Below the pieces are notes generated by a model. It saw nothing but the letters and a program-made list of their open reading frames with translations. It had not been told where the DNA came from and ran no database searches. From Escherichia coli (GTDB lineage: Bacteria > Pseudomonadota > Gammaproteobacteria > Enterobacterales > Enterobacteriaceae): a DNA stretch of 64,000 nucleotides. Numbering within the stretch: the stretch's first letter is position 1; every line of letters begins with the position of its first letter. The DNA is taken from the NCBI RefSeq assembly GCF_003018115.1, contig NZ_CP027457.1, one strand, 5' to 3'. Of the stretch, positions 55,677-56,356 are shown piece by piece. Position numbers and translations under genes: made by a program.

Positions 55677-56051
55677 ATGAAAAAGGATCTGAAAACGCTG
55701 GCGCTGGCCAGACTGTCAGGGTTTCGTCATAAAACGGTGAAGGTGCCGGAATGGGGTAATGTCAGCGTGGTGCTGCGGGAGCCTTCGGCAGAGGCCTGGT
55801 ATCTGTGGCAGGACGTGCTCAATGGTGATGGAGAGGATGACGATACCCTGTCGGTGGTGGCGAAAACCCGCCGTAACCTGGAAGCGGATGTGACGCTGTT
55901 CTGCGATGTCCTGTGTGATACGGACCTGCAGCGGGTGTTCACTCCGGACGACCGTGAGCAGGTGCTGGCCGTCTATGGTCCGGTACATGCCCGGTTGCTG
56001 CGTCAGGCACTGGAACTGATCGCTGATGCAGAGTCGGCCAGAAAAAAGTAG
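55677..56051 (+). CDS. tail assembly chaperone (gpG-like)
   Basis: 124 aa immediately upstream of the tape measure region; ends with slippery AAAAAAG. Confidence 0.7.
   Translation: MKKDLKTLALARLSGFRHKTVKVPEWGNVSVVLREPSAEAWYLWQDVLNGDGEDDDTLSVVAKTRRNLEADVTLFCDVLCDTDLQRVFTPDDREQVLAVYGPVHARLLRQALELIADAESARKK
56042..56048 (+). promoter_or_regulatory. programmed -1 ribosomal frameshift site (A AAA AAG) for the G-T fusion
   Basis: Heptamer three codons before the G stop; the -1 frame is open from here through the T ORF. Confidence 0.6.
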
Positions 56052-56074
56052 CCCGCCCGGAAATTCGCTTTCTG

Positions 56075-56356
56075 ATGCGACTTGCGCTCCGTCTGGGGCG
56101 CACCTTATCTGAACTGCGGCACAGCCTGAGTGCGAGCGAGGCGATGATGTGGATGGAGTTCGACAGGATATCCCCGCTGGGTGATGAGCGCGGGGATATC
56201 CGTAATGCACAGATCGTGAAAGCGGTTTTCGGGGCACAGGGTATGAATGTTGCACTGAAGGACGCCATGCTCTGCTGGGGCGAGGATGAGGATAAGCCGG
56301 AGGTGGATCCGTTTGCGGCGCTGGAAGACGCGCTGAGCTTTGCAGCACAGTCATGA
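56075..56356 (+). CDS. tail assembly protein T-like segment (expressed as G-T fusion by -1 frameshift)
   Basis: 93-aa ORF in the -1 frame relative to G, open continuously from the slippery site. Confidence 0.6.
   Translation: MRLALRLGRTLSELRHSLSASEAMMWMEFDRISPLGDERGDIRNAQIVKAVFGAQGMNVALKDAMLCWGEDEDKPEVDPFAALEDALSFAAQS

What the first reader, a model, noticed from the sequence alone, without database searches (positions are those of the whole stretch)
56036..56356. Conserved G-T programmed -1 frameshift
The chaperone ORF ends ...A-R-K-K-stop with the heptamer A AAA AAG at 56042-56048. The -1 frame is open from there through the 93-aa downstream ORF, reproducing the lambda G/GT architecture at the expected place before the tape measure gene.
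Basis: partly seen in the sequence, partly recalled or inferred. Interest (0 to 1): 0.4.

Follow-up and report, generated by a model that had tools for sequence, protein, structure and literature searches.

The report
Phage tail chaperone G/GT frameshift site
This is the well-known programmed -1 ribosomal frameshift that lets a prophage make a tail-assembly chaperone and a longer fused version from one gene pair; this exact sequence was already shown in 2013 to shift at about 7%, so it is real but ordinary.

Summary
A 124-codon tail assembly chaperone gene (55677-56051) ends AGA AAA AAG TAG. The heptamer A_AAA_AAG (56042-56048) is in the right register. The -1 frame is open from 56027 to 56356, so a shift can only happen in a 25-nt window that holds the heptamer. 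The upstream ORF is an HK97 gp13-type chaperone (Pfam PF06222; PDB 2OB9). The downstream ORF carries the lambda T domain (PF06223). Both lie between the major tail gene and the tape measure gene of a lambdoid prophage inserted next to ompW in E. coli.

In relatives down to about 32% identity, a slippery site ending in A_AAG sits at the same place. The -1 peptide upstream of the annotated ATG 56075 is conserved through synonymous codon changes. That ATG has no ribosome binding site.

The decisive evidence is published. The 75 nt at 56022-56096 are identical to a cassette tested by Antonov et al. 2013 (PMC3711429, Table S2), which gave 7% +/- 0.79 frameshifting in E. coli. I found no stimulatory RNA structure or upstream Shine-Dalgarno-like element.

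The feature is already known. The only gap is in annotation: public records list two separate genes, and the 226-aa fusion is absent from the protein collection I queried.

The parts
55677..56051 (+). G-type tail assembly chaperone ORF (124 aa plus TAG), the product of standard decoding
   Evidence: Translation. Pfam PF06222 Phage_TAC_1, E=1.6e-61, full length. Matches PDB 2OB9 (HK97 tail assembly chaperone), E=1.1e-45. Anti-SD duplex before ATG 55677 is -8.4 kcal/mol.
56027..56051 (+). Permissive window for a -1 shift, between the last -1-frame stop (TGA 56024-26) and the 0-frame stop
56042..56048 (+). Slippery heptamer A_AAA_AAG. The tRNA-Lys molecules on AAA and AAG re-pair with AAA and AAA one base back.
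   Evidence: Sequence. It is the only in-register A_AAA_AAG in 4275 late-operon codons. Slippery sites sit at the homologous place in relatives. Identical cassette measured at 7% in PMC3711429 Table S2.
56049..56051 (+). 0-frame stop TAG immediately 3' of the heptamer. It ends G in the ~93% of ribosomes that do not shift.
   Evidence: The adjacent stop is shared by 733R4, SW-37 and Pm34 but not by HK97 or the Burkholderia phages.
56048..56356 (+). -1 frame extension (102 aa plus TGA) that carries the T domain. The first codon after the shift is GTA (Val).
   Evidence: Pfam PF06223 Phage_tail_T, E=2.6e-19. Pro128 is invariant and Phe132 nearly invariant upstream of Met134.
56075..56077 (+). ATG used as the start of 'tail assembly protein T' in public annotation. 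Here it is read as internal Met134 of GT.
   Evidence: No SD: -3.5 kcal/mol, and 34% of all ATG triplets in the window do as well, against -5.8 to -12.8 for real starts. It lies inside a predicted helix spanning residues 128-139. The Met is conserved as a residue in the F-L-M-x-L-A-L-R motif.
54946..55662 (+). Major tail subunit gene (with a C-terminal Ig-like domain), the upstream neighbour. It is the inferred binding partner of the T domain.
56404..59646 (+). Tape measure protein gene, the downstream neighbour. It is the inferred binding partner of the G domain.
   Evidence: Pfam PF06120, PF20155 and PF09718. Annotation.

Best explanation
This is a programmed -1 ribosomal frameshift of the phage tail assembly chaperone (G/GT) type, in its HK97 gp13/gp14 form.

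Most ribosomes translating the chaperone gene from 55677 decode AAA AAG, stop at TAG 56049 and release the 124-aa G protein. In a minority, about 7% in a reporter assay, the tRNA-Lys molecules on AAA (P site) and AAG (A site) slip back one base onto A_AAA_AA. The next codon read is GTA (56048-50), and translation continues in the -1 frame to TGA 56354-56. The result is a 226-aa GT fusion with the junction ...S-A-R-K-K|V-A-R-P-E-I-R-F-L-M....

By analogy with lambda, many G and a few GT molecules coat the tape measure protein through the G part. The T domain recruits the major tail subunit so that the tube polymerises to the right length. Neither protein stays in the virion. This part is inferred from homology and was not tested here.

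The site works through the intrinsic slipperiness of A_AAA_AAG for E. coli's single tRNA-Lys. No dedicated stimulator RNA was found. The immediately adjacent TAG may add a P-site slippage route that gives the same product, which is also inference.
For: Shown by the sequence: heptamer, register, stops and the open -1 frame.

Family assignment: G is PF06222 and matches PDB 2OB9. The T part is PF06223, the same family as lambda T. The pair sits between the major tail and tape measure genes.

HK97 gp14 (G part 62% identical) is annotated 'translated due to a -1 frameshift', and Bcep176 gp69' is annotated as a joined 'lambda T equivalent'.

Comparative evidence: I examined 13 distinct relatives from Escherichia, Salmonella, Cronobacter, Klebsiella, Proteus, Serratia, Bordetella and Burkholderia phages. 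Eleven carry A_AAA_AAG, G_GGA_AAG or G_GAA_AAG at the homologous place, always inside the permissive window. In 733R4 and SW-37 that window is exactly the heptamer. The other two are Klebsiella phages with a non-canonical site. 79 of 80 IMG/VR loci have A_AAA_AAG_TAG.

The linker between the slip site and the ATG is 9-11 codons long and always in frame. Its invariant Pro is encoded by CCG, CCC, CCT and CCA, and its Phe by TTT and TTC.

ATG 56075 has no SD and lies mid-helix in the AlphaFold model.

Experiment: Antonov et al. 2013 (PMC3711429) Table S2, cluster Phage_TAC, fs-gene 15618692. The printed 75-nt insert is identical to window 56022-56096 and gave 7% +/- 0.79. A G_GGA_AAG member of the same cluster gave 6%. 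The cluster is not among those the authors list as showing internal initiation.

The roles of G and GT come from the review PMC5009743.
Against: The 7% figure comes from a GST-MBP reporter, not from the prophage. No protein-level evidence for GT from this prophage was found.

The fusion sequence is absent from the 15-billion-protein collection, and every public record examined for this prophage and its near-identical relatives annotates T as starting at the ATG.

In the Burkholderia, Bordetella and Serratia relatives the G stop overlaps the conserved Met codon (TGATG). This is a classic coupling arrangement, so some independent T synthesis cannot be excluded there. The Klebsiella relatives have a non-canonical A_GCA_AAG.

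The functions of G, GT and the T domain are inferred from lambda and not tested for this family.
Confidence: 0.93

Rival explanations
1. Two independent genes, as in current public annotation. T (93 aa) is initiated at ATG 56075, either de novo or by termination-reinitiation after the G stop 23 nt upstream. The slippery heptamer is irrelevant.
For: PGAP and GenBank records annotate it this way, and the 93-aa protein is recorded on 779 contigs. An ATG or Met at this position is invariant in the family. In some relatives it overlaps the G stop as TGATG.
Against: There is no SD. The anti-SD duplex is -3.5 kcal/mol, no better than 34% of random ATG triplets, against -5.8 to -12.8 for neighbouring real starts. 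The -1 frame upstream of the ATG is conserved at the amino-acid level through synonymous changes and in-frame length changes. The -1 frame is open back to the heptamer in all relatives. The identical cassette yields a GST-to-MBP fusion at 7%, and the cluster is not listed among those showing internal initiation. The Met lies mid-helix in the model.
Confidence: 0.04
2. The fusion arises by transcriptional slippage of RNA polymerase on the A6 run (56042-56047), not by ribosomal slippage.
For: There is a homopolymeric run of six A at the site. A reporter assay that measures protein cannot by itself tell the two mechanisms apart.
Against: From established knowledge, and not tested here: efficient RNA polymerase slippage needs runs of about 8-9 or more A or T. 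Antonov et al. tabulate efficiency rising with run length for 7-11 A. Family members with G_GGA_AAG or G_GAA_AAG (3-4 A) keep the same architecture, and a G_GGA_AAG member gave 6%. The register of the heptamer relative to the 0 frame is conserved, which matters for ribosomes but not for polymerase.
Confidence: 0.02
3. Chance juxtaposition: a fortuitous heptamer at the end of an ordinary gene with no recoding.
For: AAAAAAG is not rare. It occurs 30 times on both strands of the window.
Against: The in-register occurrence is unique in 4275 late-operon codons. The site is conserved at the homologous place across genera. Frameshifting has been measured on the identical sequence.
Confidence: 0.01

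Closest known systems
Phage HK97 gp13 / gp14 (tail assembly chaperone and its -1 frameshift extension; gp13 structure PDB 2OB9)
   Same: The G part is 62% identical and belongs to the same Pfam families, PF06222 plus PF06223. The position between the major tail and tape measure genes is the same, as is the -1 relation. The T-part motif P-G-x-x-F-L-M-x-L-A-L-R-M-G-R-T-L-S-E-L is shared.
   Different: The HK97 site reads CGG GAA AAG (G_GAA_AAG), and the G frame runs 5 more codons before TAA. Here the site is A_AAA_AAG followed at once by TAG. HK97 has a moron (gp15) between gp14 and H, and this prophage does not.
Phage lambda gpG / gpGT (Levin, Hendrix and Casjens 1993; Xu, Hendrix and Duda 2004, 2013, 2014, cited via PMC5009743 and PMC3711429)
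   Same: The architecture and presumed mechanism match: low-level -1 slippage near the end of G gives a G-T fusion. The T domain is in the same Pfam family, PF06223. The gene order V-G-T-H is the same. Efficiency is of the same order: a 30:1 ratio in lambda against 7% here.
   Different: The G proteins are not detectably similar. BLASTP gives E=3.3, lambda G is PF06894/TIGR01674, and this one is PF06222. The lambda heptamer is G_GGA_AAG. The T part does not reach the lambda T equivalog TIGR01715, and pairwise BLASTP finds nothing.
E. coli dnaX gamma/tau frameshift cassette
   Same: The slippery heptamer A_AAA_AAG is identical, and it is decoded by the same single tRNA-Lys.
   Different: From established knowledge, dnaX has an upstream SD-like element and a downstream stem-loop that raise efficiency to about 50% or more. 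Here neither is present: the upstream anti-SD duplex is -3.0 kcal/mol against a background of -3.7, and downstream folding gives z of -0.55 and -0.70 with no conserved structure. This is consistent with the 7% measured. In dnaX the shifted frame terminates early. Here it extends the protein by 102 aa.

Membership tests
Tail assembly chaperone G/GT programmed -1 frameshift (Xu, Hendrix and Duda 2004 class) | Two ORFs lie between the major tail subunit gene and the tape measure gene. | tested here: met
   ORFs 55677-56051 and 56075-56356 lie between 54946-55662 (tail tube plus Ig domain) and 56404-59646 (tape measure domains).
Tail assembly chaperone G/GT programmed -1 frameshift (Xu, Hendrix and Duda 2004 class) | The second ORF is in the -1 frame relative to the first and is open back into the end of the first. 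| tested here: met
   The -1 frame is open from 56027 to 56356 and the G stop is at 56049.
Tail assembly chaperone G/GT programmed -1 frameshift (Xu, Hendrix and Duda 2004 class) | A slippery X_XXY_YYZ heptamer sits in the correct register inside the overlap. | tested here: met
   A_AAA_AAG at 56042-56048. It is the only in-register instance in 4275 late-operon codons.
Tail assembly chaperone G/GT programmed -1 frameshift (Xu, Hendrix and Duda 2004 class) | The arrangement is conserved in diverged relatives. | tested here: met
   11 of 13 distinct relatives, down to about 32% identity, carry A_AAA_AAG, G_GGA_AAG or G_GAA_AAG at the homologous position. The two Klebsiella phages are non-canonical. 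79 of 80 IMG/VR loci carry the site.
Tail assembly chaperone G/GT programmed -1 frameshift (Xu, Hendrix and Duda 2004 class) | A fusion product is made at a low percentage of the upstream product. | tested here: met
   I verified that window 56022-56096 is identical to the 75 nt printed for the insert in Table S2 of PMC3711429. The published measurement is 7% +/- 0.79 in an E. coli GST-MBP reporter. The actual insert also carried 18 nt upstream and 45 nt downstream that are not printed. The experiment is published work, not my own, and it was not done in the phage context.
Tail assembly chaperone G/GT programmed -1 frameshift (Xu, Hendrix and Duda 2004 class) | Both G and GT are needed for tail assembly, and both are absent from virions. 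| not testable with these tools
   Known for lambda. It needs genetics and virion proteomics on this prophage.
HK97 gp13/gp14 family (Pfam PF06222 Phage_TAC_1 plus PF06223 Phage_tail_T) | The G part matches PF06222 above the gathering score. | tested here: met
   206.1 bits against a cut-off of 25, covering the full-length model 1-124. PDB 2OB9 matches at E=1.1e-45.
HK97 gp13/gp14 family (Pfam PF06222 Phage_TAC_1 plus PF06223 Phage_tail_T) | The -1 extension matches PF06223 above the gathering score. | tested here: met
   69.9 bits against a cut-off of 25.9. HK97 gp14 scores 73.4 and lambda T scores 54.1.
Lambda gpG / gpT equivalogs (PF06894, TIGR01674, TIGR01715) | The G part matches the lambda G models. 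| tested here: not met
   No hit to PF06894 or TIGR01674. BLASTP against lambda G gives E=3.3.
Lambda gpG / gpT equivalogs (PF06894, TIGR01674, TIGR01715) | The T part matches the lambda T equivalog TIGR01715. | tested here: not met
   No NCBIfam hit. It shares only the broader Pfam T domain PF06223.
dnaX-type stimulated A_AAA_AAG cassette | An upstream SD-like stimulator and a downstream stem-loop at 5-9 nt. | tested here: not met
   The upstream anti-SD duplex is -3.0 kcal/mol against a background mean of -3.7. Downstream folds give z of -0.55 and -0.70. The consensus structure energy across 11 relatives is -1.84 kcal/mol with 5 pairs.

The most novel reading that the evidence does not exclude
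The most novel reading still open is that this lineage tunes the G:GT ratio differently from lambda. Measured frameshifting here is 7% (about 13:1), against a 30:1 ratio in lambda. It would do so by using the most slippery bacterial heptamer with the stop codon abutting it, which would allow both tandem A/P-site slippage and P-site slippage at a slowly decoded TAG. A small amount of free T might also be made by reinitiation at the conserved Met codon, as the TGATG overlap in the Burkholderia and Bordetella relatives hints. That would make three products rather than two.
Probability: 0.1. Interest if true: 0.25.

Novelty: already known. Interest (0 to 1): 0.08.

Why it matters
The biology is textbook phage recoding. 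The frameshift sets the ratio of two chaperone forms that let the tail tube assemble around the tape measure protein. Its practical value is as an annotation correction. This prophage family is present in 1245 of the 5426 complete E. coli genomes searched and includes many Stx-converting phages. PGAP and GenBank records list 'tail assembly chaperone' and a 93-aa 'tail assembly protein T' as separate genes. The real second product, a 226-aa fusion, is absent from the protein collection I queried. The site is also a natural example of A_AAA_AAG working at a few percent without stimulators.

Tried and rejected
- **Downstream stimulatory structure.** Folding 56049-56140 and 56010-56110 gave z-scores of -0.55 and -0.70. 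RNAalifold on 11 diverged relatives gave -1.84 kcal/mol with 5 pairs, all inside the conserved L-A-L-R-x-G-R coding stretch about 36 nt downstream. I rejected it as a stimulator.
- **Upstream SD-like stimulator.** It is absent in the window (-3.0 kcal/mol). It is present only in some relatives: Bcep176 at -10.3, PHB09 at -10.8 and 733R4 at -7.2. It is not a family feature.
- **Rfam scan of the whole window.** Nothing was found at 56000-56400.
- **Direct BLASTP of the T part against lambda T.** No alignment was found. Homology shows only through the Pfam profile.
- **NCBIfam.** There were no hits for either part.
- **+1 frame alternative.** The +1 frame is open only from 56020 to 56112, so I rejected it.
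- **Exact look-up of the 226-aa fusion.** It is absent from the protein collection.
- **Literature.** A search for Stx-phage-specific reports of this frameshift found none. Xu et al. 2004 is not held in the library and is cited only through PMC3711429 and PMC5009743.
- **Locus L060.** It looked like an exception but is a Klebsiella-type locus with a 1-nt deletion.

Full report
**1. The observation**

[quoted passage not shown] That ORF translates to a 124-aa protein ending A-R-K-K-stop. Its likely start is ATG 55677, preceded by AAGGGGA, with an anti-SD duplex of -8.4 kcal/mol. The ATG at 55629 reported mechanically by the ORF listing lies inside the preceding gene.

The heptamer A_AAA_AAG occupies 56042-56048 in the X_XXY_YYZ register. 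The 0-frame stop TAG follows directly at 56049-51. The -1 frame has a stop at 56024-26 and is then open to 56356, so it includes the 93-aa ORF from ATG 56075. A -1 shift can therefore only join the two ORFs within 56027-56051, and the heptamer lies in that window.

In 4275 in-frame codon positions of the + strand late operon, the only in-register A_AAA_AAG is this one. Any canonical heptamer occurs 7 times. The chance of one falling in a 7-position window is about 1% for any heptamer and about 0.2% for this one.

**2. What it is**

The window is E. coli chromosome (opp genes, kch, tonB, yciABC, ompW) with a lambdoid prophage inserted beside ompW.

The region is 99.3% identical to long-tailed Stx-converting phages such as 2851, YYZ-2008 and JLK-2012. 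It is 100% identical to E. coli 07-4299. 1245 of 5426 complete E. coli genomes carry a match.

The family assignments are as follows:
- The upstream ORF is a full-length match to Pfam PF06222 (Phage_TAC_1, 206 bits). It also matches the solved HK97 tail assembly chaperone, PDB 2OB9, at E=1e-45.
- The -1 extension matches PF06223 (Phage_tail_T, 69.9 bits), the family that also holds lambda T.
- The upstream neighbour is the major tail subunit, with a C-terminal Ig-like domain.
- The downstream neighbour is a 1080-aa tape measure protein.

Public records annotate the two ORFs as separate genes, 'phage tail assembly chaperone' and 'phage tail assembly protein T', with no slippage. The HK97 record (G part 62% identical) annotates gp14 as 'translated due to a -1 frameshift'. 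The Bcep176 record annotates gp69' as a joined 'lambda T equivalent'.

**3. Comparative evidence**

I fetched relatives down to about 32% identity and dissected the end of G in each. A slippery site ending in A_AAG sits at the homologous position, always inside the permissive window:

| Site | Where found |
|---|---|
| A_AAA_AAG | This prophage, 733R4, Proteus Pm34, Serratia OS31, Bordetella PHB09, Burkholderia phi644-2, phi1026b and Bcep176 |
| G_GGA_AAG | Salmonella SW-37, mEp390 |
| G_GAA_AAG | HK97, SaltyDalty, Cronobacter ENT39118 |
| A_GCA_AAG (non-canonical) | The two Klebsiella phages |

In 733R4 and SW-37 the permissive window is exactly the heptamer. Among 80 IMG/VR loci, 79 have A_AAA_AAG_TAG. 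The exception, L060, is a Klebsiella-type locus with a 1-nt deletion.

The peptide encoded in the -1 frame between the slip site and the annotated ATG is conserved as P-[GDE]-x-x-F-L-M. Pro128 is invariant and Phe132 nearly so. The Pro is encoded by all four synonymous codons across lineages, and the Phe by TTT and TTC. The linker varies between 9 and 11 codons but always stays in frame. This is the signature of translation in the -1 frame upstream of the ATG.

The ATG itself has no Shine-Dalgarno sequence. Its anti-SD duplex is -3.5 kcal/mol, and 34% of all ATG triplets in the window do as well. Neighbouring real starts score -5.8 to -12.8. In an AlphaFold model of the fusion (mean pLDDT 77), Met134 lies inside a helix that spans residues 128-139 and starts at the invariant Pro.

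**4. Published experiment on this very sequence**

Antonov et al. 2013 (NAR 41:6514, PMC3711429) predicted conserved frameshifts with GeneTack and tested cassettes in a GST-insert-MBP reporter in E. coli. Their cluster 'Phage_TAC [862991913]' has 41 genes similar to an HK97 protein. [quoted passage not shown] A G_GGA_AAG member of the cluster gave 6% +/- 0.61.

A string search shows that this 75-nt insert is identical to window 56022-56096. The paper says the actual insert also carried 18 nt upstream and 45 nt downstream that are not printed, so I could not check those. The cluster is not among those the authors list as showing translational coupling or internal initiation.

The review by Atkins et al. 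2016 (PMC5009743) summarises the lambda paradigm:
- G and GT are made at about 30:1.
- Both bind the tape measure protein through the G part.
- The T domain binds the major tail protein.
- Neither product is in the virion.
- The frameshift is widely conserved in long-tailed phages (Levin 1993; Xu 2004, 2013, 2014).

**5. Mechanism**

These steps are shown by sequence and the published reporter. About 93% of ribosomes terminate at TAG 56049 and give G (124 aa). About 7% slip -1 on A_AAA_AAG, read GTA at 56048 and continue to TGA 56354-56, giving a 226-aa GT with the junction ...SARKK|VARPEIRFLM....

These steps are inferred from established knowledge:
- The slip is a tandem re-pairing of tRNA-Lys (mnm5s2UUU) from AAA-AAG to AAA-AAA.
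- G and GT coat the tape measure protein, and the T domain recruits the major tail subunit.

No stimulator was found. Downstream folding is not better than shuffles (z of -0.55 and -0.70). There is no conserved structure across 11 relatives. There is no upstream SD-like element in the window (-3.0 kcal/mol against a background mean of -3.7).

The adjacent stop codon is shared by some lineages but not all. It may add a P-site slippage route, which is speculation.

**6. Rivals**

- **Independent initiation at ATG 56075**, as in the current annotation. It is contradicted by the missing SD, the conserved -1 linker and the reporter result. The TGATG stop/Met overlap in the Burkholderia, Bordetella and Serratia relatives leaves room for some coupling there.
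- **Transcriptional slippage on A6.** This is unlikely. Relatives with only 3-4 A keep the architecture, and one shifted at 6%. The codon register is also conserved.
- **Chance.** This is excluded.

**7. Comparison with known systems**

It works like lambda G/GT and is a member of the HK97 gp13/gp14 family (PF06222 plus PF06223). It is not a member of the lambda gpG family: there is no PF06894 or TIGR01674 match, and BLASTP gives E=3.3. Its T part does not reach the lambda T equivalog TIGR01715. It shares its heptamer with dnaX but lacks the dnaX stimulators.

**8. Verdict**

The finding is real, correctly interpreted and already known, both as a class and for this exact sequence. The remaining value is an annotation fix. 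The 226-aa fusion is absent from the large protein collection, while the 93-aa 'T' protein is recorded on 779 contigs. Interest is low.

Noticed in passing
window 56362-56385 (and L002, L005, L010, L012, L013, L014 just upstream of their tape measure genes): A GC-rich hairpin followed by a T-run (AACCGC-TGAG-GCGGTT then T7; -14.6 kcal/mol, z = -3.18) lies between the T stop and the tape measure start. A terminator-like hairpin with a different stem sequence sits at the same place in 7 of the 11 lineages examined. HK97 annotates a 'putative terminator' there. It may set the ratio of chaperone to tape measure expression. The consensus scan missed it.
   Followed up: partly
window 38889-39868 and 36917-37129: Four tandem copies of an STnc100-like sRNA (Rfam RF02076, 119-142 bits) and a fifth copy upstream (172 bits). 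They fill an ORF-poor gap of about 1.9 kb between an HTH gene and the SASA/NanS-p esterase gene. This is the position where stx genes sit in Stx-converting relatives.
   Followed up: no
window 54946-55662: The major tail subunit carries a C-terminal immunoglobulin-like domain (Pfam Ig_3, Ig_2 and I-set hits at residues ~172-250 of the 261-aa GTG-start ORF 54877-55662 that was scanned), fused in frame to the tail tube domain.
   Followed up: no
L009/L010 (Klebsiella phages) 1590-1604; L060 1880-1905: The Klebsiella relatives have a non-canonical site, A_GCA_AAG_TAA, with an in-frame ATG two codons later. They may use single-tRNA A_AAG slippage or independent initiation. L060 has a 1-nt deletion that puts G and T in one frame, interrupted by two stops.
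   Followed up: partly
L004, L012, L014, L015, L016 (Burkholderia, Serratia and Bordetella phages), end of the G ORF: The G-frame stop overlaps the conserved Met codon of the T part (TGATG), which is a typical translational coupling arrangement. The A_AAA_AAG slip site lies 8-12 codons upstream. Both routes to T-containing products might coexist there.
   Followed up: no
window 28495-28679, 29388-29562, 35942-36100: The prophage carries isrK and C4 antisense RNA homologues, a sok antitoxin RNA next to hokD, and two tRNA genes downstream of the Q region.
   Followed up: no
window 60428-61432: A 334-aa ORF lies inside the tail gene block. It corresponds to the Arc-like repressor/Ant antirepressor insertion of phage 2851. 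This insertion is absent from E. coli 07-4299, the genome that is 100% identical over the G/T region (query 55600-56450). The tail module is therefore mosaic.
   Followed up: no
window 56075-56356 in public databases: One member of the 90% cluster of the 93-aa 'T' protein is named 'preprotein translocase subunit SecA' in some E. coli records. This is an evident misannotation that has been propagated.
   Followed up: no
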